From Candidatus Hydrogenedentota bacterium (GTDB taxonomy: Bacteria; Hydrogenedentota; Hydrogenedentia; Hydrogenedentales; SLHB01): 64,000 nucleotides of DNA. A model generated the notes under the pieces. The model had not been told where the DNA came from, made no database searches, and worked only from the letters and a program-made list of their open reading frames with translations. This document shows, in pieces, positions 1,894 to 61,700 of this stretch (within the stretch, counting starts at the first letter, position 1; every line of letters begins with the position of its first letter). Both the position numbers and the translations under genes were made by a program. Location: contig JACQVH010000157.1 in NCBI GenBank assembly GCA_016209895.1, positions 4,206 to 68,205 on the forward strand, given 5' to 3'.

Positions 1894-2412
1894 ATGACGA
1901 AGCATCGTACGGATTATATCTCGTGGGCGGATTATTTCATGGGAATTGCGATTTTGTCGGCGCATCGCAGCAAGGACCCGAGTTCGCAGGTGGGCGCGTG
2001 CATCGTGAATGCTCAAAACCGGATTGTGGGGATCGGCTATAACGGCTTTCCGACCGGGTGCAGCGATGAGGAGTTGCCTTGGAACCGCGAGGCCCAAAGC
2101 TCCTATGACACCAAATATCCGTACGTTTGCCACGCCGAACTTAACGCCATCTTGAACACGAACACCGCGAACCTGAAGGGCTGCCGCATGTACGTCACGC
2201 TTTTCCCTTGCTGCGAGTGCACGAAGCTTATCATCCAGGGCGGCATCTCCAAGATCATCTACTTGAGTGATAAGTACCACGACACGGATAGTGTCAGGGC
2301 CGCGCGGCGCATGCTGGATATGGCGGGAATGGAATATGAGGCGTTCGACCCCGGAATGGACCGGATCGTGATTGACTTTGCGAAGGAAGCCGAGGCTGCG
2401 ACCAAGGTTTAG
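1894..2412 (+). CDS. dCMP (deoxycytidylate) deaminase, zinc-dependent CDA fold
   Basis: CHAELNAI and PCCECTKLI zinc-binding motifs; RBS GGGAG upstream of ATG. Confidence 0.8.
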
Positions 2413-2515: not shown

Positions 2516-2612
2516 TCGATTACGATTGGCGATTACGATCCTCGATTACGATTCCCGATTACGAGCACGCGCACGAATCTCGATTATGAAGCTCGATTAC
2601 GATTATGAGCTG
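2516..2612. repeat. Array of ~6 tandem (T)CGATTACGAt(t) units (period ~13-14 bp); copy 1 of a dispersed ~80-100 bp element
   Basis: Read directly: cgattacgattgg/cgattacgatcc/tcgattacgattcc/cgattacgagc.../tcgattatgaagc/tcgattacgattatgagc; inverted copy at 59291-59365. Confidence 0.7.
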
Positions 2613-2691: not shown

Positions 2692-3840
2692 ATGCCGCAA
2701 CGGAGCTATGATGTGATTGTGTTGGGGTTGGGGGGTATGGGTAGTGCTGCGCTGTATCATCTAGCGAAGCGGGGCGCGCGGATATGCGGGGTTGAACGGC
2801 TCGGGGTGGCGCATGATCGCGGGAGTTCGCACGGTTCGCTGCGCATGATCCGCAAGGCGTACTTCGAGCATCCGGACTACATTCCGTTGGTCGAGCGGGC
2901 ATACGAACTGTGGCGGGCACTCGAAGTCGAGAGCGGGAAGTCGTTACTGACCGAATGCGGACTGCTGTTGTCGGGCAGGCCGGACTTCACGCTAATTCGC
3001 GGACTCGAGGAGTGTTATGGCCAGCATGACCTGCCGCATGAACGCCTCACGGCCGGCGAGGCCATGCGGCGGTATCCACAATTCCGGTTGCCGGAAGACC
3101 ATGCCGCTTTCTGGGACCCGGTGGGTGGATATCTGCGCGTCGAGGAGTGTGTCGCGACGCACCTCGCATTGGCGCAACTGCACGGCGCTGACGTGCTGGC
3201 TCACGAGGACGTACTATCGTGGAGTTCAGCAGACGATCTCGTCACGGTAACGACGGACCAGCGCACGCTGCAAGCGAAGTGCCTCGTGCTGACCGCGGGT
3301 GCGTGGATGGGCGCCGTTTTCGCAGAGTTACGGGCGCCGTTCCGGGTGTTGCGCAAGGTTCAATTGTGGTACGATTCGCCGAACCGCGCGAGGTACGAGG
3401 CGGGAGCATTTCCGGGGTTTTACGTGGATACAGACTATGGGGGCTTCTATGGCTTTCCAGCAGTGGACGAGACCGGTATGAAGATTGCCGAGCATACCGG
3501 TGGGGAGGAGGTCTCAAATCCTGACGAGTTGGATCGTGGCTTGCACTCCCAGGACGAGGCGAAGATTCTAAAGTTTCTCGGCGAGACATTCCTGGGAATG
3601 CAACCGCGAAGGACGAAATTCAGCGCGTGCATGTACTCGATGAGCGCGGACGGGAATTTCATAGTTGATCGCCACGCCCGTTTTGCGAACGTGGTCTTGG
3701 CGGGCGGATTTTCCGGCCACGGGTTTAAGTTTGCATCGGTCATCGGCGAAATTCTTACGGACTTGGCCCTGGAAGGCAGGACCCGACATCCCGTCGAGTT
3801 TCTAGGCTTGAGTCGTTTCGCGAATCATGCGGCGCGGTGA
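2692..3840 (+). CDS. solA: FAD-dependent N-methyl-L-tryptophan oxidase / monomeric sarcosine oxidase family (MSOX/MTOX; could be a fructosyl-amine oxidase-like)
   Basis: N-terminal DVIVLGLGGMGSA dinucleotide fold; C-terminal GGFSGHGFKFASVIGEI closely matches E. coli SolA GLSGHGFKFASVLGEI. Confidence 0.8.
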   Translation: MPQRSYDVIVLGLGGMGSAALYHLAKRGARICGVERLGVAHDRGSSHGSLRMIRKAYFEHPDYIPLVERAYELWRALEVESGKSLLTECGLLLSGRPDFTLIRGLEECYGQHDLPHERLTAGEAMRRYPQFRLPEDHAAFWDPVGGYLRVEECVATHLALAQLHGADVLAHEDVLSWSSADDLVTVTTDQRTLQAKCLVLTAGAWMGAVFAELRAPFRVLRKVQLWYDSPNRARYEAGAFPGFYVDTDYGGFYGFPAVDETGMKIAEHTGGEEVSNPDELDRGLHSQDEAKILKFLGETFLGMQPRRTKFSACMYSMSADGNFIVDRHARFANVVLAGGFSGHGFKFASVIGEILTDLALEGRTRHPVEFLGLSRFANHAAR

Positions 3841-9012: not shown

Positions 9013-9154
9013 CGTTGATTCTCCCCACATAATCCGACCTTAGCCTTCCTATTCAGGAGCAGTCTAACAGGTTGTCTATACACCGCCAAATGCCGTCGTC
9101 CGTTCGAGAAGCGTTCAGATGTGAAGCTCACATTTCGAATGGAAGTCATACGCC

Positions 9155-9189
9155 CGTTGCAAATGGGCGCTACATCGGGCACTACATCT
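9155..9189. repeat. Three direct repeats GGGC(G/A)CTACA at 12-13 bp period upstream of putA
   Basis: gggcgctaca(9155) gggcactaca(9167) gggcgctaca(9180) read directly; GTTGCA motif just upstream (9146-9151). Confidence 0.6.
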
Positions 9190-9337
9190 GGGCGCTACAA
9201 TTTCCTGACGGTTTTCCGTGCCGTGGAAGCCCGCTGATTCGCGGGCGGAACAGGAATATTGCATCGGGCGGCGGCGTAATTCTTTGATGAAGGAACCGGT
9301 GCGCTGCCGCGCATAGGCGAATCGGAGAATTAAAACT

Positions 9338-12322
9338 ATGGCAACAACTTCTCCCACGATTGCCGAAGCTGACCGGGTTCGGGCGACTGCCGCCGAACTT
9401 CTGCGCCACATGCACGATACGGCGCCCAGCGTCTTTCAACCGCGGGCGTTGACGGGGCGTCTACTGAACTGGGTCATGCACGACCCGGAACTGAAGGTGG
9501 ATTTGTTCCGTTTGGTGGATGTGCTGCCCTCGCTTCGTTCAGCTAGGGAAATCCAGGCGCATATTTCGGAATATCTGCGACCCAACGCGCGCAAGCTGCC
9601 GTCTTGGCTGGGGCCGATCCTGAAATTCGCCACCGGCGGATTGACCGCGGGTCTCACCGCCGGCGCAGTACGGAAGATGGTCGAGGAGGTCGCGCGGCAG
9701 TTTATTGTTGGCGAGGACTGGACACACGCGCTGCCACGCCTGAGGAAGCTACATGAATCGGGTTTGGGCGCTACCGTTGACTTGGTAGGGGAAGTGACGG
9801 TAAGCCATGAAGAGGCGGATGCGTACCAGTCCAGCTACCTGGGACTCATTGACGCGCTTAGCGAGGAATCGCAGCGTTGGCCGTCCCGTGACGTTCTGGA
9901 TCGAAACCATCTCGGACTCATCCCACGGGCCAACGTGTCTCTGAAGCTGTCCGCCCTGGAACCCTTCCTCGATCCCGTGGACACAGCGGGCAGCATCGCA
10001 CGCTTGCGGGAGCGCGTTATTCCAATTCTGCTCCGAGCGCGCGAAAGAAACGTGTTCGTGAATGTGGATATGGAGACATGGGCGTTACACGGCATTATTC
10101 TGGGGTTCCTGGAAGGTGCGTTGCGGCATCCCGAGCTACGCGCGTGGCCGCACGTCGGGGTGGCAGTTCAGGCATACTTGCGGAACGCGCAGACAGACTT
10201 GGATACGATACTGGAAATGGCGCGGCAACGCGAGGCGCCGATCACGGTGAGGCTCGTGAAGGGCGCCTATTGGGAACAGGAAGTAATTCGCGCGCGACAG
10301 CACGGTTATCGGGTGCCGGTATGGGAATCCAAATCCGCGACCGATCGCAATTTCGAGAGGCTATCAACATTCCTGTTCGAACATTGCGAACACCTGCTAC
10401 CGGCATTCGGCAGCCATAATTTACGCTCTGTCTCATTTGCGCTGACACAGGCCGAAGCATTAAACGTTTCCGACGAGGCGTTTGAGTTCCAAATGTTGTA
10501 CGGTATGGCGGAGCCGCTGCGCGACGCATTGCGGGAGAGGGGTCATCGTGTGCGAGTGTATGCGCCGATTGGCGAACTCATCCCCGGCATGGCGTACTTA
10601 GTGCGCCGACTCTTGGAGAACACTTCGAACGAAGGTTTTCTGCGACAATCCTACTTCGAGAGGGTAGATCTCGAGGCGCTTCTCGCAGCGCCAGAAACGT
10701 CGCCGTCGCCGTCGAAGCCCGCGTGGGAACCACGACCTGATCTTTCGCCGCCGTTCACCAATTGTCCGCATCGGGATTTCACTGACACCGAGGAACGACA
10801 GCGATTGGCCGCAGCGGTGGAACGCTCTTCCGGTTTGCTACCGATGAAGGTTCCGGTGCGTATTTCCAGAGATGGTCAACATCCGAAAACCGTGATGGAA
10901 CGGTTCTCCCCCAATGACCGGAACCAATGCGTGGCGTTGGTGGAGATGGGGACCAAAGACGACGCCGAACGGGCGGTCGAGGCGGCGATGGCCGCGTGGC
11001 CTTCATGGCGCAATACCTCGGTGGAATACCGGGCACACCTCCTTGAAACGCTCGCGGGCGGTCTCTGGGAGGATCGGGTGCGGCTTGCCGCTCTCGAAGT
11101 GCACGAAGTGGGAAAGCCTTGGACCGAGGCCGACGCGGACGTGGCCGAAGCGATTGATTTTTGTCGGTACTACGCGCGTCGAGCGTTGGCCGAGTTGCTG
11201 CCCGAACAGATCGGCGAAGCGCCGGGGGAAATCAACCAACTTATTTACGAAGGCCGCGGCCCCACCGTCGTCATCGCGCCCTGGAATTTTCCGCTTGCGA
11301 TCTTGTGCGGCATGACTACGGCAGCGCTCGTCGCCGGCAACACCGTCATCATGAAACCGGCGGAACAATCCAGCGCGACTGCAAATGCGCTCCACGAGCA
11401 CTTACTCGACGCCGGCTACCCACCGAACGTAGTGCAGTTCCTCCCGGGCCGTGGCGAAGACGTGGGACCCACTTTGGTCGAGCACCCGCTGACGGCGCAA
11501 GTGGCCTTTACAGGAAGTCGCGGCGTGGGACTTTCGATCTGGCAGCGCGCCGCCGTGCATCGGTCCGGCCAACGACTGCTCAAACACGTTATCTGCGAGA
11601 TGGGAGGCAAAAACGCGATACTCGTGGACGAAGACGCCGACTTGGACGAAGCGGTGCAAGGGGTGATGATCAGCGCGTTTAGCTACGCGGGCCAGAAGTG
11701 TTCGGCGTGCTCGCGGGTGATCGTGCTCCAAGACATCGCGCACAACTTCCTCGACCGGCTGGTAGAAGCTTGCCGCAGCCTTGTAGTCGGTCCGAGCACT
11801 GAACCGTCATGTCAACTGGGACCGGTGATAGACGAGGAGGCATACCTCCGTTTAATGGAGATTATCGAGGATCCGGGTACCGACGTGGAAGTCTTGTATC
11901 GAGGAAGTGCTCCTTCGGATAACGGGTACTTCGTACCACCACTCGTGGTGAAGGCTACAGATTGCCAGTGCCGTCTAATGCAGGATGAGTTATTCGGCCC
12001 TATCCTGTGTGTGCTCGTCGTCAGCTCGTTTGACGGGGGGTTGGACACGGCGTTGTCGAGCGACTTTGCTTTGACCGGCGGTGTCTACTCGCGCCGGCCG
12101 AGCCACATTGAGGAGGCTCGGCGACGGTTTCGGGTCGGAAATCTTTACGTGAATCGGCCGTGCACGGGCTCCATGGTTGGCCGACAAGCCTTCGGTGGTT
12201 TCGACATGAGCGGCGGCGGGACGAAAGCCGGGGGACCGGGGTATCTGCGCCATTTCGTCAACCCGGTATGCATCACTGAAAACACGGTACGCCGCGGCTT
12301 CGCTCCAGACCTGACCACGTGA
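9338..12322 (+). CDS. putA: Bifunctional proline dehydrogenase / L-glutamate-gamma-semialdehyde (P5C) dehydrogenase PutA (short form, no RHH DNA-binding domain)
   Basis: 994 aa; C-terminal ALDH signatures FTGSRGVG, ICEMGGKNAILVDEDADLDEA, catalytic Cys region QKCSACSR; N-terminal PRODH barrel. Confidence 0.9.
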   Translation: MATTSPTIAEADRVRATAAELLRHMHDTAPSVFQPRALTGRLLNWVMHDPELKVDLFRLVDVLPSLRSAREIQAHISEYLRPNARKLPSWLGPILKFATGGLTAGLTAGAVRKMVEEVARQFIVGEDWTHALPRLRKLHESGLGATVDLVGEVTVSHEEADAYQSSYLGLIDALSEESQRWPSRDVLDRNHLGLIPRANVSLKLSALEPFLDPVDTAGSIARLRERVIPILLRARERNVFVNVDMETWALHGIILGFLEGALRHPELRAWPHVGVAVQAYLRNAQTDLDTILEMARQREAPITVRLVKGAYWEQEVIRARQHGYRVPVWESKSATDRNFERLSTFLFEHCEHLLPAFGSHNLRSVSFALTQAEALNVSDEAFEFQMLYGMAEPLRDALRERGHRVRVYAPIGELIPGMAYLVRRLLENTSNEGFLRQSYFERVDLEALLAAPETSPSPSKPAWEPRPDLSPPFTNCPHRDFTDTEERQRLAAAVERSSGLLPMKVPVRISRDGQHPKTVMERFSPNDRNQCVALVEMGTKDDAERAVEAAMAAWPSWRNTSVEYRAHLLETLAGGLWEDRVRLAALEVHEVGKPWTEADADVAEAIDFCRYYARRALAELLPEQIGEAPGEINQLIYEGRGPTVVIAPWNFPLAILCGMTTAALVAGNTVIMKPAEQSSATANALHEHLLDAGYPPNVVQFLPGRGEDVGPTLVEHPLTAQVAFTGSRGVGLSIWQRAAVHRSGQRLLKHVICEMGGKNAILVDEDADLDEAVQGVMISAFSYAGQKCSACSRVIVLQDIAHNFLDRLVEACRSLVVGPSTEPSCQLGPVIDEEAYLRLMEIIEDPGTDVEVLYRGSAPSDNGYFVPPLVVKATDCQCRLMQDELFGPILCVLVVSSFDGGLDTALSSDFALTGGVYSRRPSHIEEARRRFRVGNLYVNRPCTGSMVGRQAFGGFDMSGGGTKAGGPGYLRHFVNPVCITENTVRRGFAPDLTT

Positions 12323-52838: not shown

Positions 52839-52960
52839 CTCCGAAACGGTAAGGTTTTTCATGAACAGGTATGCTGTGCGCGGCCGATTTACACCCCGTG
52901 TTGGGCAGACTTTGTGGTCTGCCCAACTGTCTTCTCCGAAACGGTGAGGTTTCTCATGAA
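52839..52960 (+). repeat. 27-bp direct repeats CTCCGAAACGGT(A/G)AGGTTT(T/C)TCATGAA (52839-52865, 52934-52960) flanking a perfect 11-bp-stem hairpin (52900-52927); contains a 27-codon mini-ORF with SD
   Basis: Read directly; hairpin GTTGGGCAGAC-tttgtg-GTCTGCCCAAC. Confidence 0.6.
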
Positions 52961-58400: not shown

Positions 58401-58633
58401 TCGGCGTCGAGCCGGTATGGATGCAGTTGCATCATGACGAAGGCTCGGAAATCTACGTCAACGGCAAGTTGTTGCTGGAATTTGGTGGGTATCTCACCGA
58501 CTATCAGCGAATCGTATTAAAGCCCGAGCAGATAGCGCTGTTTCGCTCCGGTGGGAAAAACGTAATCGCCGTCCACTGTTCCCACACTGGTGGCGGACAG
58601 TTTATAGACTTGAGTCTTTCGACCGTGCAATGA
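55436..58633 (+). CDS. Glycoside hydrolase family 2 protein (1066 aa) with extra C-terminal domains
   Basis: GH2 N-terminal sugar-binding (WYERDVTIP...VDWHATVWVNGQKVAEHEGGYTPFEV), TIM-barrel region; signal peptide. Confidence 0.7.
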   Translation: MRCALAISMTIMFAPHVHASAAGDSVHPRPDWMRPVVSLNGPWRFDLDRDDVGVGQQWFAGHTFTRTINVPFPWQSELSGVHDLAYQGAAWYERDVTIPGEAKESRVFVVFGAVDWHATVWVNGQKVAEHEGGYTPFEVELTGFAKPGETVRLTLRAYDVTDPETPNGKQTGWYTPTGGIWQTVYLETRGAAFLQSAQIYPDIDGERATVRYSIDAAEKGTYKLLVSAREEGTGREFREERAVGCSPGITTDQCTISIPEPRLWTPDTPRLYPTHLELRLQDKVVDAVDTYFGMRKISRGTYGGSTQEYLLLNNQPIYLRGALHQSFNPKGIYSHPDDDFLRRDYEKAKEFGLNFLRIHIKVDEPRALYWADRLGIMLMCDMPNFQHKTDRAKRLWEETLRRAVARDFNHPAVIAWCNFNETWGIGDGGYDRPTQEWVRDMYLLAKQLDPTRLVEDNSACNYDHTVTDINSWHFYMDDYEHARRHIAEVVDQTFPDSQFNYAPGWKQTTEPLLNSEYGGVSAGSGDRDISWVFLILTNLLRKHGKICGYVYTELEDIEWEHNGFMNYDRSDKVYDYPAEIKLKDLQQDDFPVLDCPPYQKIAGGANASIPVLVSRWSERQNLVLRLSVDGKTVDGTSWNSLVSPQERNVEGSAFAVTSQGTFDLLIPNMQGLVYVIAELLQDGKRYAANYCVLHVADGMAWSKPDQFAVSFPVDKFSAYSFGADRHFIPERPGKVFGYGPGYLEYRLLLPEDLDPEAVLSCRLVAEIGAKADRARVDWPEHIHPQDYPQTDGRAWPTDVGVSLNDVEFAKLHIENDFADARGVLSHVAGYHHGSHGVVADLPLDGLALEEIKRSLQQDRPIAVRFGVAPGDRSGGLALYGAELGAYPADPTLVFSLRPGTPLPKRRGETVDLADERIVNLIQRGPRGHVWRYTEADPGRDWYGVQFDDRNWKTGPSGFGREDTPGARIGTPWLTSHIWLRTTVEAPRTFGVEPVWMQLHHDEGSEIYVNGKLLLEFGGYLTDYQRIVLKPEQIALFRSGGKNVIAVHCSHTGGGQFIDLSLSTVQ

Positions 58634-59232
58634 CTCCGGTACACCCAGGCATACAAGCCGCGCGACGATTTGCGCGCGAGCACGACTCCGAGCCGGAGCA
58701 CGCGTTCCAGGTTTGTAAGACTAGTCTGCAACTCTTTGACGGTCTCGTTGAACGGCATGGTCTGGGTGCGGCAGAGCGCCGGCTACTGGAGGCCGCCGCC
58801 TTGCTTCATGACACCGGCTACGATGTGGATCCCGTCCGGCACCACAAGATTTCTCGAGACCTGATTGTGGACTCACGACTGGAAGGCTTCACCAAGGAGC
58901 AATTAGCCATCGTGGCCTGCGTGGCGCGATATCATCGCAAGGCTCATCCGGACCAGACGCATCGTGTTTACCGAGACCTGAGCCGACGGGCCCGCAGCGT
59001 TGTGGACCGTTTGGCCGCCATCCTGCGCGTGGGGGACGGCCTGGACCGTTCTCATTCGGCGTGCACGTGCGGAGTGCGCATCGAGCAGAAGGGAACCGCG
59101 CTCCGCCTGTTAGTACAGCAACGGCGTCCGAATCCCATTGACATCGAAGGCGCCCTCCGCAAGCGGCAATGGTTCGAGGAAGTGTTTAAGGTGCGCCTAG
59201 ATATCGTGCCAGTGCCGATGGAACGCGGTTGA
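58630..59232 (+). CDS. HD-domain protein resembling the C-terminal HD domain of Ppx/GppA phosphatases
   Basis: LLHDTGY...HH; 4-bp overlap with GH2 stop. Confidence 0.55.
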   Translation: MTPVHPGIQAARRFAREHDSEPEHAFQVCKTSLQLFDGLVERHGLGAAERRLLEAAALLHDTGYDVDPVRHHKISRDLIVDSRLEGFTKEQLAIVACVARYHRKAHPDQTHRVYRDLSRRARSVVDRLAAILRVGDGLDRSHSACTCGVRIEQKGTALRLLVQQRRPNPIDIEGALRKRQWFEEVFKVRLDIVPVPMERG

Positions 59233-59290
59233 TGCGGATGAAACGGATTTGCACGGATATTGGTATTTCATGAGAACTCGTAGTCGACGT

Positions 59291-59365
59291 CTCGTAATCG
59301 CGATTCGTAATCGTAATCGAGGTTCGTACTCGTGCTCGCAATCGGTGACTCGTAATCGTAACGAA
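59291..59365. repeat. Inverted copy of the CGATTACGA-rich element (TCGTAATCG units x~6), overlapping the start of the YiiX-like gene
   Basis: Reverse complement aligns with 2558-2612 (e.g. CGATT(A/G)CGAGCACG(C/A)G(C/T)ACGAA(T/C)CTCGATTA). Confidence 0.7.
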
Positions 59366-60049
59366 CCACTTTTCACTTTGGTCCTCCTATGCGTGCTACT
59401 GAGCGCATGTGCAACCTCGCCTTCCGGGCATCCTACATCATTCAGGCTTCGTCCGGGGGACCTCCTCTTCCAAGACCTGGACGGCAGTCCGCTGTGCGAT
59501 GCGATCGAGACCGTAACTCACGGGGTGAACGGAGCCAAGTTCTCCCATGTGGGAGTCGTCTGTGAAGTAACGCGTGACGAGGTCAAAATAATCGAGGCCG
59601 TATCACGCGGCGTCGTCGAAACGAACCTGGACGAGTTCTTGGGTCGCAGTAGGGACGACGCGGGCCGACCCAAGGTTTTGGTCGGAAGACTCAAGCCGGA
59701 ATACCGGCGTTACATCCCCGAAGCCCTCGACGCCGCGCGTAAGTTCCTGGGAAAGCCGTACGACTCCGTGTACGTCATGGGCAATGGGTCACTTTATTGC
59801 TCGGAACTGGTCTACGAGGCCTTCCACGCCGTGGCGCCGAAGACCTCGATGTTCGAAATCACACCCATGACTTTCAAGGACCCCTTCACGCGGCAGACCT
59901 TCCCCGCCTGGACCGAGTACTACTCCATTTTGGGTCTTTCTATTCCCGAAGGCGAACCCGGTCTTAATCCCGGCAGCATTTCCCGTTCTTCCGCAATCAC
60001 CATCGTGCACGCCTACGGTCGCCCCACCGGCTGGCGCGGCCCTGATTAG
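59345..60049 (+). CDS. YiiX/DUF830-like permuted-papain-fold lipoprotein
   Basis: Putative GTG start; lipobox LLSAC; motifs GDLLF, HVGVV, YCSELVYEAF. Confidence 0.45.
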   Translation: MTRNRNEPLFTLVLLCVLLSACATSPSGHPTSFRLRPGDLLFQDLDGSPLCDAIETVTHGVNGAKFSHVGVVCEVTRDEVKIIEAVSRGVVETNLDEFLGRSRDDAGRPKVLVGRLKPEYRRYIPEALDAARKFLGKPYDSVYVMGNGSLYCSELVYEAFHAVAPKTSMFEITPMTFKDPFTRQTFPAWTEYYSILGLSIPEGEPGLNPGSISRSSAITIVHAYGRPTGWRGPD

Positions 60050-60050
60050 T

Positions 60051-60108
60051 CCCTGGTCCCTGGTCCCTGGTCTCTGCTTCTCGGTTTCCAGTTTCCGGTT
60101 TCCAGTTT
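60051..60108. repeat. Short tandem repeats (CCCTGGT)x3 then (GTTTCCR)x3.5 upstream of Tmk-like operon
   Basis: Read directly. Confidence 0.6.
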
Positions 60109-60265
60109 AAGATTGCTCGGAACTCGGTACTTGAAAGTCGGTACTCGTTGCTCATTGCTTGGGTTGACAGCCCCCCGCCGCCGGATGCTAGAGTAGACAG
60201 TTTCCAGGGTCTCCGATGTCGCCTCTTCGGTGGCAGGATCCCCTTTTGTGCGCAGGAGCAGAGTT

Positions 60266-61033
60266 ATGGCGGGGCTGCACGAGACACACAGCTATCCAGG
60301 CATGTTGATCGTCGTCGAAGGCATTGACGGCTCCGGCAAGTCTACGCAACTCGACCTGATTCGGTCATGGCTGATCCAGGAAGGCTATGACGTCTTCTTT
60401 ACGGAATGGAACTCGTCCAAACTGGTCAAGGAGACAACCAAACTTGGCAAGAAGCGCCAAATTCTTACTCCAACCACTTTTTGTCTTATTCATTGCACCG
60501 ATTTCTCGGACCGGCTTCAGAGGACAATCATTCCTCCGCTTCAGGCCGGGCAGATCGTTCTGGCCGACCGTTACGTATACACGGCGTTCGGTCGTGACGC
60601 CGTCCGTGGGGTAGACCGGCAGTGGCTTCGAGACCTCTACCATTTCGCGGTACGACCCGATATCGCCTTCTATTTCTCGGTGCCGCTCGAGATCGCCATC
60701 CAGCGTATCTTCCGGGGACGCGCCGCGCTCAAATACTACGAGGCTGGGTTGGACCTCGGCCTGAGTCGGGACCCGGCGGACAGTTTTCGAAAATTCCAAA
60801 CCCGGATCGTCGAAGAGTACGAACGGTTGGTGGATGAATACGGCCTCGTGGCAGTGCATGGCGATCATCCCATCGAGAAGCAACAGCGCCGCATTCGAAA
60901 GATCGTCATGGAGCACATCAATCGCAAAAAGATGAAGTCCAACGAGGATAGAAAGCATGAAGGCCAGATTCTATGGGGCGGGTATCCCCTCACACCTGAA
61001 CACCGAGTTACAGGGGCGCCTGATCGTCCTTGA
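60266..61033 (+). CDS. Thymidylate-kinase-like P-loop kinase (paralog 1)
   Basis: P-loop VVEGIDGSGKSTQ, DRY motif LADRYVYT, lid arginines, DIAFYFSV; RBS AGGAG. Confidence 0.65.
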   Translation: MAGLHETHSYPGMLIVVEGIDGSGKSTQLDLIRSWLIQEGYDVFFTEWNSSKLVKETTKLGKKRQILTPTTFCLIHCTDFSDRLQRTIIPPLQAGQIVLADRYVYTAFGRDAVRGVDRQWLRDLYHFAVRPDIAFYFSVPLEIAIQRIFRGRAALKYYEAGLDLGLSRDPADSFRKFQTRIVEEYERLVDEYGLVAVHGDHPIEKQQRRIRKIVMEHINRKKMKSNEDRKHEGQILWGGYPLTPEHRVTGAPDRP

Positions 61034-61700
61034 GGGGCCGGATTGCGTCGGTCGCACCACGCAAATCCGTCTACTACAGGATTGGCTCGAAAACCTCGGT
61101 TACGGTGTGGTGATCACCTCGCTATGTCGTTCCGAGTTGGCGGAAGAAGGGCTTACCAAGGCCAAGAAAGGCAATATCATCGGGCGCCAGACCCTCGCCC
61201 TGTTTTACGCCACGGACTTCGCGGACCGGCTCGAACGGGTGATCTTGCCCGCACTCGAAGGCGGCTTCATCGTGCTCTCCGACCGGTATACGTATACGAT
61301 CTTCGCCCGATATGCCGTGCGTGGCATTAGCCGATCCTGGCTGCGTAAGGCCTATGGCTTCGCGCTCATCCCACACCTGGCGCTTTACCTGGACGTGGAC
61401 CTGGACAGCCTCGTCCGCCGAGCCCTCAAAGCGGAAAAACTCGGGTTCTGGGAGTGCGGCATGGACTTGAGCCTCTCCAGCAACCTTTACGAGAGTTTTC
61501 TACTCTATCAGAAGCAAATGCTTCGAGAATTCAAGAAGATCGTCAAAGAGTACAATCTCGTCAGCGTCAGCTCGCTCGGGTCGGTCCCGGAAGTCCAGGA
61601 CCGTCTCCGCAAGAAAGTCCGCGCGTTGCTCGATGTCAAGGACACGGAGATGGACGCGCGAGAGTCCCAGGAGCCTATCGTCGAGGGGGCCTCCGATTAA
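60957..61700 (+). CDS. Thymidylate-kinase-like paralog 2 with degenerate P-loop (GPDCVGRTT), overlaps paralog 1 by 77 bp
   Basis: LSDRYTYT, HLALYLDVDLD conserved; Walker A lysine replaced by Arg. Confidence 0.5.
   Translation: MKARFYGAGIPSHLNTELQGRLIVLEGPDCVGRTTQIRLLQDWLENLGYGVVITSLCRSELAEEGLTKAKKGNIIGRQTLALFYATDFADRLERVILPALEGGFIVLSDRYTYTIFARYAVRGISRSWLRKAYGFALIPHLALYLDVDLDSLVRRALKAEKLGFWECGMDLSLSSNLYESFLLYQKQMLREFKKIVKEYNLVSVSSLGSVPEVQDRLRKKVRALLDVKDTEMDARESQEPIVEGASD

What the first reader, a model, noticed from the sequence alone, without database searches (positions are those of the whole stretch)
2516..2612. CGATTACGA-rich repeat element, copy 1, in the 5' region of the solA-like gene
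About six tandem 13-14 bp units containing CGATTACGA. An inverted, about 85%-identical copy lies 57 kb away (59291-59365). The match extends beyond the simple repeat (CGATT(A/G)CGAGCACG..ACGAA.CTCGATTA), so this is a dispersed element rather than two independent microsatellites. Both copies sit directly upstream of, or overlapping, the start of a + strand gene. It could be a transcription-factor binding array, a REP/MITE-like element or a small RNA.
Basis: seen in the sequence. Interest (0 to 1): 0.55.

Follow-up and report, generated by a model that had tools for sequence, protein, structure and literature searches.

The report
Dispersed CGATTACGA short tandem repeats
The two CGATTACGA arrays are real, but they are compound short tandem repeats (6-7-base units) gained recently in gene spacers of one Hydrogenedentes lineage, and nothing found here marks them as a mobile element, regulator-binding array or small RNA.

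Summary
Site 1 (2516-2612, + strand) and site 2 (59278-59358, - strand) carry 9 of the window's 13 exact CGATTACGA copies, against 0.65 expected. They are the only arrays in 64 kb with CGA recurring every 6-7 bases.

The similarity "beyond the repeat" consists of variant repeat units such as CGAGCA and CGAAC. Arrays from unrelated phyla align to each window copy as well as the two copies align to each other. The flanks share nothing.

The window is from a Candidatus Hydrogenedentes genome bin. Relatives lack both arrays. In four relatives the HD and C92-peptidase genes overlap or nearly abut exactly where the window has a 112-base spacer holding site 2.

Neither region folds better than shuffled sequence. 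There is no Rfam, promoter or terminator hit and no recurrent neighbouring protein family.

Across 317 related arrays from other genomes and metagenomes, arrays are enriched between convergent genes and depleted between divergent ones (p = 4e-5). They show no strand bias, a broad range of unit numbers, and copy-number differences between samples.

Best reading: an intergenic long simple-sequence-repeat family, comparable to cyanobacterial STRR, Xanthomonas GGGAATC and Beggiatoa TAACTGA repeats. Its function is probably nil or structural. What remains unexplained is why the motif recurs across phyla and why the 9-mer is conserved.

The parts
2516..2612 (+). Site 1 array. Units read CGATTA|CGATTGG|CGATTA|CGATCCT|CGATTA|CGATTCC|CGATTA|CGAGCA|CGCGCA|CGAATCT|CGATTA|TGAAGCT|CGATTA|CGATTA|TGAGCT. 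This gives a 13-base super-period (9-mer CGATTACGA plus a 3-4-base variable spacer) at 2517-2567 and a degenerate tail to about 2608.
   Evidence: The 9-mer has 4/63 mismatches against 9/23 in the spacers (Fisher p = 6e-4).
59278..59358 (-). Site 2 array, read on the - strand: CGATTA|CGAGTCAC|CGATTG|CGAGCA|CGAGTA|CGAACCT|CGATTA|CGATTA|CGAATCG|CGATTA|CGAGACGT|CGACTA|CGAGTTCT. Spacing is irregular (6-8 bases). On the + strand the stretch 59348-59362 supplies codons 2-6 (T R N R N) of the C92 lipoprotein signal peptide.
1894..2412 (+). dCMP/cytidine deaminase gene. Its stop lies 105 bases upstream of site 1.
   Evidence: Pfam PF00383, E = 8e-25.
2692..3840 (+). solA-like FAD oxidase (DAO family; named N-methyl-L-tryptophan oxidase by NCBI). 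Its start lies 84 bases downstream of site 1. Orthologues in relatives have no array upstream.
58630..59232 (+). HD / Ppx-GppA domain III gene. Its stop lies 46 bases from the nearer end of site 2.
   Evidence: Pfam PF21447 and PF01966. Its place in the GH2-HD-C92-CHAD gene order follows from the relatives' Pfam-annotated genes and the window's Pfam hits.
59345..60049 (+). C92 (YiiX-like) permuted papain-like peptidase, a predicted lipoprotein (MTRNRNEPLFTLVLLCVLLSAC). The GTG 59345 start is inferred from orthologue lengths and their signal peptides.
60049..60108 (+). Second simple-repeat block in the same neighbourhood: (GTCCCTG)x4 then (GGTTTCC/AGTTTCC)x3.6, in the 180-base spacer after the C92 gene. 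Relatives have no such repeats at this position.

Best explanation
Both sites are compound short tandem repeats (long simple-sequence repeats). Their basic units are 6-7 bases beginning with CGA. CGATTA is the dominant unit, and in this genome it alternates with a variable unit to give a 12-14-base super-period.

They belong to a repeat family that is scattered through intergenic DNA of many uncultured bacteria. Inferred: such arrays arise and change length in place by slipped-strand mispairing or unequal recombination, and variant units are themselves amplified.

Shown: the arrays sit in spacers and are absent at the same positions in relatives. At site 2 the array-bearing spacer separates two genes that overlap or nearly abut in all four relatives examined. 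Inferred: the array's end now encodes the first residues after the start codon of the C92 lipoprotein.

Inferred: the arrays have no sequence-specific function in this genome. At most they act as unstructured spacers that uncouple neighbouring genes. Arrays of this family persist mainly at the 3' sides of genes, which would fit insertions being better tolerated there.
For: Tandem structure and excess over chance.

The two copies resemble arrays in unrelated phyla as much as they resemble each other, and their flanks are unrelated.

Lineage-specific gain.
- solA orthologues (66-69% identity) have no array upstream.
- The gene order GH2 - HD - C92 - CHAD - Exo_endo_phos seen in relative L528 is kept in the window (L530 keeps it through CHAD).
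- HD and C92 overlap by 4-17 bases or are separated by 2 bases in L528, L530, L652 and L653. The window instead has a 112-base spacer holding the array.

Behaviour typical of simple repeats in the wider family.
- Unit numbers are broad with no preferred value.
- Copy number differs between samples at what appear, from shared flanks, to be the same loci (L541 against L556; L551, L615, L626).
- Variant spacers are amplified in blocks.
- Co-occurring perfect tandem units are one- or two-substitution derivatives of CGATTA.

Location. Gaps with arrays are convergent/co-directional/divergent 56/92/23 against 88/280/121 for array-free gaps in the same loci (p = 3.9e-5). In co-directional gaps the strand split is 43:53, p = 0.36.

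No structure and no RNA family. No recurrent neighbouring protein among 443 flanking ORFs.

Published parallels with the same properties are PMC4692102 (read) and PMC4679880.
Against: The 9-mer CGATTACGA is much less variable than the 3-4-base spacer in site 1 (p = 6e-4). Slippage followed by uniform mutation does not predict this.

Two of about four simple-repeat blocks in the window share one motif. Given roughly 350 hexamer classes, this is unlikely by chance (my estimate, about 2%).

The family shows a consistent 5'-to-3' polarity: CGATTA to CGAGCA 40:15, and CGATTA to CGACAA 32:12 (counts, p-values). Inverted pairs prefer the head-to-head arrangement, 24:9.

The motif recurs across very distant phyla. 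These points leave room for a constraint or a dedicated generating mechanism.

No length polymorphism could be shown for the window's own arrays. The only other copy found (L119) is identical and is likely the same population.
Confidence: 0.6

Rival explanations
1. The arrays are binding sites for an oligomerising nucleic-acid-binding protein that recognises CGATTACGA or (A)CGA every 6-7 bases. This could act on DNA, like the heptad arrays bound by the omega repressor or ParG-type centromere/operator arrays. It could instead act on RNA, like TRAP or HutP triplet repeats, or the S1/Csp/CsrA binding proposed for TAACTGA repeats.
For: The 9-mer is conserved while the spacer varies. In metagenome arrays the spacers differ (ATTA, TTGA, GTGA, ACCA and others) and mostly end in A, giving a recurring ACGA. 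Both regions are less structured than shuffles, as expected for single-strand binding sites. The motif recurs across phyla in many copies per genome.
Against: The constancy of the 9-mer was imposed by the search pattern, so it is not independent evidence. Relatives' orthologous genes lack the arrays. The two window copies have opposite orientation relative to co-directional genes, and the family shows no strand bias, which argues against an mRNA-level site. The family is depleted in divergent gaps, which argues against operators. There is no preferred unit number and no recurrent neighbouring regulator. In PVC-group genomes the variant units change the first base (AGATTA, GGATTA), so CGA is not universally kept.
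Confidence: 0.15
2. The arrays are elements of gene 3' ends, acting as transcript-end, insulator or mRNA-stabilising elements. They would work as long hairpins when two arrays lie inverted, and the window's lone arrays would be half-elements or decayed ones.
For: The family is enriched in convergent gaps and lies close to stop codons (median 65 bases from the array's 3' end to the stop of the converging gene). There are 33 inverted array pairs within 200 bases, with short loops in several, for example L113, L078 and L117. Both window arrays lie 46-105 bases after a stop codon.
Against: Neither window array has an inverted partner nearby, and neither folds better than shuffles. No terminator-like site was found. 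Site 2 sits inside what is a tightly coupled operon in relatives, where a terminator would be harmful. Enrichment at 3' ends is equally expected from tolerance of neutral insertions.
Confidence: 0.1
3. The arrays are copies or remnants of a small non-autonomous mobile element (MITE-, REP- or PATE-like) that carries the repeats.
For: The arrays are insertions relative to related genomes. The family has many copies per genome. Acidobacteriota carry a modular composite with a fixed order of modules. Chromatiaceae loci have a conserved core of about 52 bases between inverted arrays.
Against: In the window there are no shared ends, terminal inverted repeats or target-site duplications, and similarity stops at the repeat itself. 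No transposase or RAYT-like family recurs next to arrays. Array lengths and unit orders differ from copy to copy.
Confidence: 0.07
4. The arrays are translated. Site 1 would be a 26-codon upstream ORF (ATG 2509 to TGA 2589, rich in CGA and TTA codons). Site 2 would be a long N-terminal extension of the C92 protein starting at ATG 59270.
For: Both reading frames are open. The CGA strand of such arrays has no stop codon in any frame. Site 2's last unit very probably does encode residues 2-6 of the C92 signal peptide.
Against: The 13-base and irregular periods break any reading frame. Orthologues have short (about 18-25 residue) lipoprotein signal peptides and total lengths of 228-245 aa, matching a GTG 59345 start. 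No homologue supports the upstream ORF.
Confidence: 0.04

Closest known systems
Intergenic heterogeneous heptamer repeats of Xanthomonas (GGGAATC) and Nostoc (GGGGAYT), Rehm et al. 2015, PMC4692102; 'long SSRs' of Mrazek et al. 2007 as cited there
   Same: Tandem 6-7-base units with some positions conserved and others free. Many dispersed copies of one motif per genome. About 90% are intergenic, closer to the 3' end of a neighbouring ORF, and rarer between divergent ORFs than control intergenic regions. They occur on both strands and vary in length between relatives. These properties match.
   Different: The motif is not G-rich and cannot form a G-quadruplex. The window's arrays have a compound 12-14-base super-period. 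In Xanthomonas most repeats sit between the same genes in two species, whereas the window's arrays are absent from all relatives examined.
TAACTGA heptamer direct repeats of marine Beggiatoaceae, Thiocystis, cyanobacteria and Bacteroidetes (MacGregor 2015, PMC4679880)
   Same: An abundant intergenic short direct repeat with a patchy distribution across phyla and no evident transfer mechanism. [quoted passage not shown]
   Different: TAACTGA sets have 2-6 copies and lie mostly within a few bases upstream of start codons, which prompted a translational-regulator hypothesis. The CGATTA family shows no strand bias and favours 3'-3' gaps.
Cyanobacterial STRR (short tandemly repeated repetitive heptamers; Mazel et al. 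1990, from my own knowledge; three tandem heptanucleotides in Calothrix PCC 7601 are mentioned in PMC4692102)
   Same: Dispersed tandem repeats of a few motifs in many copies per genome, with unknown function.
   Different: Different motifs and a different phylum. STRR units are heptamers only.
Phase-variation (contingency) simple repeats of host-adapted pathogens
   Same: Tandem short units near a gene start whose number can change by slippage.
   Different: Contingency loci use near-perfect repeats placed in the promoter spacer or reading frame, so that unit number switches expression. The window's arrays are imperfect and irregular, and no length variation was seen.
REP/BIME elements and MITEs
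   Same: Short, multi-copy and extragenic, often at the 3' ends of genes.
   Different: REPs are imperfect palindromes and MITEs have defined inverted ends and target duplications. The window's arrays have neither.

Membership tests
Intergenic long simple-sequence repeats (STRR / GGGAATC / TAACTGA kind) | Head-to-tail tandem units of about 5-11 bases | tested here: met
   TRF periods 6, 13 and 19. The unit parse shows 13-15 consecutive 6-8-base units starting with CGA at each site.
Intergenic long simple-sequence repeats (STRR / GGGAATC / TAACTGA kind) | Location in intergenic DNA | tested here: met
   Site 1 lies wholly in the 2413-2691 spacer. Site 2 lies in the 59233-59344 spacer with 14 bases overlapping the C92 start.
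Intergenic long simple-sequence repeats (STRR / GGGAATC / TAACTGA kind) | Many dispersed copies of the same motif in one genome | tested here: inconclusive
Intergenic long simple-sequence repeats (STRR / GGGAATC / TAACTGA kind) | Unit-number variation between strains or relatives | tested here: inconclusive
   The window's only other copy (L119) is identical. Variation is seen at family loci (L541 against L556; L551, L615, L626). Relatives lack the arrays altogether.
REP/BIME | Imperfect palindrome able to form a stable stem-loop | tested here: not met
   Folding energies are weaker than shuffles (z = +1.03 and +1.42). No local inverted repeat was found.
MITE | Defined ends with terminal inverted repeats and target-site duplication, with copies sharing their boundaries | tested here: not met
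   Similarity between the two sites is confined to the repeat units and the flanks are unrelated.
Transcription-factor operator array / iterons | Sites kept upstream of orthologous genes, or a cognate regulator encoded nearby | tested here: not met
   The arrays are absent upstream of solA and C92 orthologues. Neighbouring genes are enzymes. No recurrent flanking family was found, and the family is depleted in divergent gaps.
Transcription-factor operator array / iterons | Actual protein binding | not testable with these tools
   Needs EMSA, pulldown or ChIP.
Structured small RNA / riboswitch / leader | Match to a known RNA family, or structure more stable than chance together with a promoter and terminator | tested here: not met
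   Rfam gave no hit at gathering thresholds or at E <= 1. The z-scores are positive. No promoter-like or terminator-like sites were found; that scan covers sigma-70-type promoters only.
Phase-variable contingency locus | Near-perfect repeats whose number differs within a population and gates expression | tested here: inconclusive
   The repeats are imperfect (85% matches over 3.7 copies) and the one independent assembly is identical. Read-level polymorphism was not testable.
CRISPR array | Repeats of 23-50 bases separated by unique spacers of similar length | tested here: not met
   The repeat is 9 bases and the spacers are 3-5 bases.

The most novel reading that the evidence does not exclude
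Arrays of 6-7-base units starting with CGA, led by CGATTA, may be a previously undescribed class of functional cis elements shared across phyla. They show a fixed 5'-to-3' polarity (CGATTA, then CGAGCA or CGACAA, then CGAAC) and a preference for head-to-head pairing. They would be either written by a dedicated repeat-generating activity or read by an unknown oligomeric DNA- or RNA-binding protein. On this reading the window's two arrays are working copies rather than junk.
Probability: 0.12. Interest if true: 0.65.

Novelty: new member of a known kind. Interest (0 to 1): 0.3.

Why it matters
For this window it matters little. The arrays are best treated as repeat-filled spacers and should not be annotated as a regulatory site, mobile element or RNA gene. 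They do mark where a compact operon (HD-C92) was pried apart, and where a repeat appears to have been co-opted into the first codons of a signal peptide. That is a small but concrete example of simple repeats remodelling gene junctions.

More broadly, families of identical short tandem repeats scattered through bacterial intergenic DNA have been known for decades (STRR, GGGAATC, TAACTGA), and the papers read here give no demonstrated function or origin for them. The CGATTA family adds an example that spans Acidobacteriota, the PVC phyla, Hydrogenedentota, Chromatiaceae and others, with measurable polarity and positional bias. If those regularities survive proper controls, they would give a handle on how such families arise. 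These arrays also occur at contig ends, which suggests they break metagenome assemblies.

Tried and rejected
1. Inversion or recombination between the two inverted arrays. Gene order is collinear with relatives on both sides of site 2, so site 2 is not an inversion breakpoint.

2. The arrays as inverted ends flanking an ancestral DAO-HD unit. Relatives do have DAO followed by an HD gene. That HD gene is PF13328 HD_4, unrelated to the window's Ppx-GppA-type HD gene (BLASTP E = 0.005 over 37 residues). Rejected.

3. A conserved 5' leader of solA. No array lies upstream of orthologues.

4. A structured RNA. Rfam gave nothing in three searches and folding was no better than shuffles.

5. Sigma-70 promoters or intrinsic terminators. 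None were found. The sigma-54-like TCGCAC-N5-TTGCA in the Chromatiaceae core lacks the essential GG, judged by eye only.

6. Treating cross-phylum recurrence as evidence of function. Recurrence of a hexamer repeat in huge databases is therefore ordinary.

7. A ring protein with fixed stoichiometry, like TRAP. Arrays show no preferred unit number.

8. Association with a gene family. All-against-all BLASTP of 443 flanking ORFs gave clusters of at most 5.

9. Literature search for the repeat itself, six 12-mers covering both strands. Only primer or incidental hits were returned.

10. Fetching other strains of this organism. One Logan contig was identical. The HD and C92 proteins are not on record as exact sequences.

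Full report

Yes. Site 1 (window 2516-2612, + strand) contains CGATTACGA exactly five times (2517, 2530, 2543, 2556, 2594) and twice with one mismatch (2581, 2600). Tandem Repeats Finder gives period 13 x 3.7 copies at 2517-2564 and period 13 x 1.9 at 2575-2599.

Site 2 carries the motif on the - strand, exactly at 59292, 59305, 59311 and 59350, and with one mismatch at 59278, 59324 and 59336. It therefore spans 59278-59358, a little left of the coordinates given.

The window holds 13 exact 9-mers against 0.65 expected from dinucleotide shuffles. Nine of the 13 lie in the two arrays. These are also the only two runs in 64 kb of five or more CGA triplets spaced 6-7 bases apart; shuffles give a mean of 0.38 runs of four or more.

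Aligning site 1 to the reverse complement of site 2 gives 53 matches, 7 mismatches and 7 gap columns (score 62).

**2. Anatomy**

Parsed at the lowest level, both arrays are chains of 6-8-base units that begin with CGA.
- Site 1: CGATTA CGATTGG CGATTA CGATCCT CGATTA CGATTCC CGATTA CGAGCA CGCGCA CGAATCT CGATTA TGAAGCT CGATTA CGATTA TGAGCT.
- Site 2 (- strand): CGATTA CGAGTCAC CGATTG CGAGCA CGAGTA CGAACCT CGATTA CGATTA CGAATCG CGATTA CGAGACGT CGACTA CGAGTTCT.

The 13-base period is therefore a hexamer plus a heptamer.

**3. Surroundings and organism**

The solA-like protein is 100% identical to an NCBI protein from a Candidatus Hydrogenedentes genome bin, on a 68-kb contig.

Site 1 lies in the 279-base spacer between a dCMP-deaminase gene (stop 2412) and the DAO-family oxidase gene (ATG 2692). 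It is 105 bases after the stop and ends 84 bases before the start.

Site 2 lies after an HD / Ppx-GppA-III gene (stop 59232) and abuts a C92 (YiiX-like) peptidase gene. Orthologues of that peptidase are 228-245 residues long with short lipoprotein signal peptides. This fits a GTG start at 59345 (MTRNRNEPLFTLVLLCVLLSAC). On that start, the last array unit encodes residues 2-6 (T R N R N). The start position is an inference.

**4. The arrays are lineage-specific gains**

Orthologues of the oxidase at 66-69% identity (L120, L122-L129) have a different upstream neighbour and no array.

The C92 gene gives a cleaner comparison. Relative L528 keeps the order GH2 - HD - C92 - CHAD - Exo_endo_phos, as does the window; L530 keeps it through CHAD. 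In L528, L530, L652 and L653 the HD and C92 genes overlap by 4-17 bases or are 2 bases apart. The window instead has a 112-base spacer that holds the array.

After the C92 gene the window has a 180-base spacer with two further simple repeats, (GTCCCTG)4 and (GGTTTCC/AGTTTCC)n. The closest relative that has the same downstream thymidylate-kinase-like gene (L652) has a repeat-free spacer there.

A Logan assembly contig with the identical oxidase gene carries an identical site 1. It is probably the same population, so it says nothing about variability.

**5. Are the two copies a dispersed element?**

Only in a weak sense.

Against a discrete element:
- The flanks are unrelated.
- 12 of 118 loci from unrelated genomes align to site 1 with a score at least as high as site 2 does. 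The best is an Acidobacteriota locus with 86 against 62. Six loci do so for site 2.
- L107 (Acidobacteriota) matches both 31-base 'cores' at the same 27/31; L058 (Victivallales) matches the site 1 core at 27/31.

In favour of a connection:
- It is unlikely that two of the roughly four simple-repeat blocks in the window would share a motif by chance.
- The same vocabulary is present in many copies in other genomes.

These came from Acidobacteriota, Planctomycetota, Verrucomicrobiota, Kiritimatiellia, Lentisphaerota, Hydrogenedentota, Riflebacteria, Sumerlaeota, Chromatiaceae, Desulfobacterales, Chloroflexota, Methanoperedens and an uncultured archaeon. Several genomes contributed many loci.

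**6. A caution on how much that recurrence means**

Finding a hexamer repeat in many taxa in databases of this size is ordinary.

**7. Properties of the family**

These rest on 317 de-duplicated arrays. Gene calls are my own ORF calls filtered on third-codon-position GC, so they are approximate. The set is dominated by a few Acidobacteriota genomes.

- *Location.* Intergenic gaps holding arrays are convergent/co-directional/divergent 56/92/23. Array-free gaps in the same loci are 88/280/121 (chi-square p = 3.9e-5). Arrays thus favour gene 3' ends and avoid promoter-rich divergent gaps.
- *Strand.* There is no strand preference in co-directional gaps (43 sense, 53 antisense, p = 0.36). The window's two sites are one of each.
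- *Length.* Unit numbers are broadly distributed with no preferred value.
- *Variability.* Copy number differs between samples at what appear, from shared flanking sequence, to be the same loci (L541 against L556; L551, L615, L626). Spacer variants are amplified in blocks.
- *Neighbours.* No protein family recurs among 443 flanking ORFs; the largest cluster has 5 members.
- *Unexplained regularities.* CGATTA precedes CGAGCA 40:15 and CGACAA 32:12 (counts; p-values). Inverted pairs prefer the head-to-head arrangement 24:9. In site 1 the 9-mer is much less variable than the spacer (4/63 against 9/23, p = 6e-4).

**8. RNA and signal tests at the two sites**

Rfam gave no hit at gathering thresholds over the window, nor at E <= 1 over either region. 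The + strand RNA folds less stably than shuffles at both sites (z = +1.03 and +1.42). No sigma-70-like promoter or intrinsic terminator was predicted. That scan does not cover other promoter types.

**9. Most likely mechanism**

The arrays are compound short tandem repeats that arose in place, by slippage or unequal exchange with amplification of variant units. They sit in spacers of this Hydrogenedentes lineage as members of a genome-dispersed simple-repeat family.

- Shown: tandem structure, absence from relatives, lack of RNA structure, the family-level positional pattern, and length variation at related loci.
- Inferred: the slippage mechanism, neutrality in this genome, and co-option of the last unit of site 2 as the first codons of the C92 gene.

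I put this at 0.6. The rivals are:
- A protein-binding array on DNA or RNA (0.15). The 9-mer against spacer contrast favours it. Absence in relatives, lack of strand bias, depletion at divergent gaps and lack of a partner gene argue against it.
- A 3'-end or hairpin element (0.10). The window arrays have no inverted partner, and site 2 lies inside an operon.
- A MITE- or REP-like element (0.07). There are no common ends.
- Translation of the arrays (0.04).

**10. Comparison with what is known**

The closest described kinds are:
- The heterogeneous intergenic heptamer repeats of Xanthomonas and Nostoc (PMC4692102). They show the same mix of conserved and free positions, the same bias towards 3' ends and away from divergent gaps, occurrence on both strands, and length variation.
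- The TAACTGA direct repeats of Beggiatoaceae, Thiocystis, cyanobacteria and Bacteroidetes (PMC4679880). They show the same patchy cross-phylum distribution without a known vector, but sit just upstream of start codons.
- Cyanobacterial STRR (from my own knowledge).

A full-text search for six 12-mers of the repeat, covering both strands, found no description of a CGATTA family. I therefore file this as a new member of a known kind, not a new kind.

**11. Verdict**

Interest for this window is low to moderate (0.3). The residual interest lies in the family-level regularities, which need controls I could not run.

Noticed in passing
window 60049-60130: The 180-base spacer after the C92 peptidase gene holds two more simple repeats, (GTCCCTG)x4 and (GGTTTCC/AGTTTCC)x3.6, followed by CTCGGAACTCGGTACT..GTCGGTACTCG. 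Similar units (GGTCCCA, GGTTTTCCAG) adjoin CGATTA arrays in Acidobacteriota loci such as L111, L541 and L569. The closest relative with the same downstream gene (L652) has no repeats there.
   Followed up: partly
window 60230-61700: Two tandem thymidylate-kinase-like genes (PF02223) lie between the C92 and CHAD genes. In relatives L528 and L530 C92 and CHAD are adjacent, whereas L652 also has a Tmk-like gene after C92. This looks like an insertion into a conserved GH2-HD-C92-CHAD-phosphatase cluster. One homologue (P0128, 405 aa) fuses the HD/Ppx-GppA-III and C92 domains, which suggests the two act together.
   Followed up: partly
window 36097, 36558, 47921, 56464: Four isolated exact CGATTACGA 9-mers lie outside the arrays, all on the + strand and, by my crude ORF map, all within ORFs. 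Only 0.65 exact copies are expected in the whole window.
   Followed up: no
window 9164-9199: A 12-base tandem repeat (TGGGCGCTACATC-like, 2.8 copies) lies in the 307-base spacer between the genes ending at 9030 and starting at 9338.
   Followed up: no
window 52839-52865 and 52934-52960: A 27-base direct repeat, 93% identical and 95 bases apart (CTCCGAAACGGT(A/G)AGGTTT(T/C)TCATGAA). On the - strand it would read as two similar gene starts (ATGAAAAACCTTACC...).
   Followed up: no
L013, L068, L079, L104, L116 (Thiodictyon genome bin): A conserved core of about 52 bases (..GCGCCC(C/A)GGATTCTCTCGCA(C/A)GCCAAATTGCA..) is flanked by inverted (CGACAA)n(CGATTA)3 arrays that read outward from the core. 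It looks like a dispersed element or a long hairpin with a conserved loop.
   Followed up: partly
L034, L043, L046, L084, L089, L099, L107, L115, L118 and most of L532-L651: Acidobacteriota-type modular composite with a fixed order: GGGAACGAGCCTCGAG(TCTCGAGCCT), then CGATTA/CGATCA/CGAATTA units, then CGAGCACGAAC, then (CTCAACC / ATCAACC / CTCCTAT)n. It occurs in very many copies per genome, and the heptamer copy number differs between samples (L541 has 4 and L556 has 3 ATCAACT).
   Followed up: partly
L026 (Desulfosarcina chromosome OY771548.1, locus positions 750-1530): Repeats of about 300 bases in tandem, in which arrays of opposite orientation alternate with spacers of 111-128 bases.
   Followed up: no
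L533, L542, L544, L558, L577, L579, L581, L605, L608, L641 (metagenome contigs): Very long (CGATTACGATTGA)n arrays, with 26 copies of the 9-mer in the longest (L641), run to contig ends and share a conserved flank (..CAATCGATTACGATTACTCAAAAAACTGTAATCGATTGTAAT). These arrays evidently break assemblies.
   Followed up: no
L015, L040, L074, L085, L080, L038, L103: Some pattern hits are ordinary coding sequence: FG-GAP-like DYDHDYD motifs in Bryobacteraceae proteins, and D/Y/N-rich low-complexity proteins whose repeat variants differ by synonymous codons (L038). Raw counts of the motif therefore overstate the number of intergenic arrays.
   Followed up: partly
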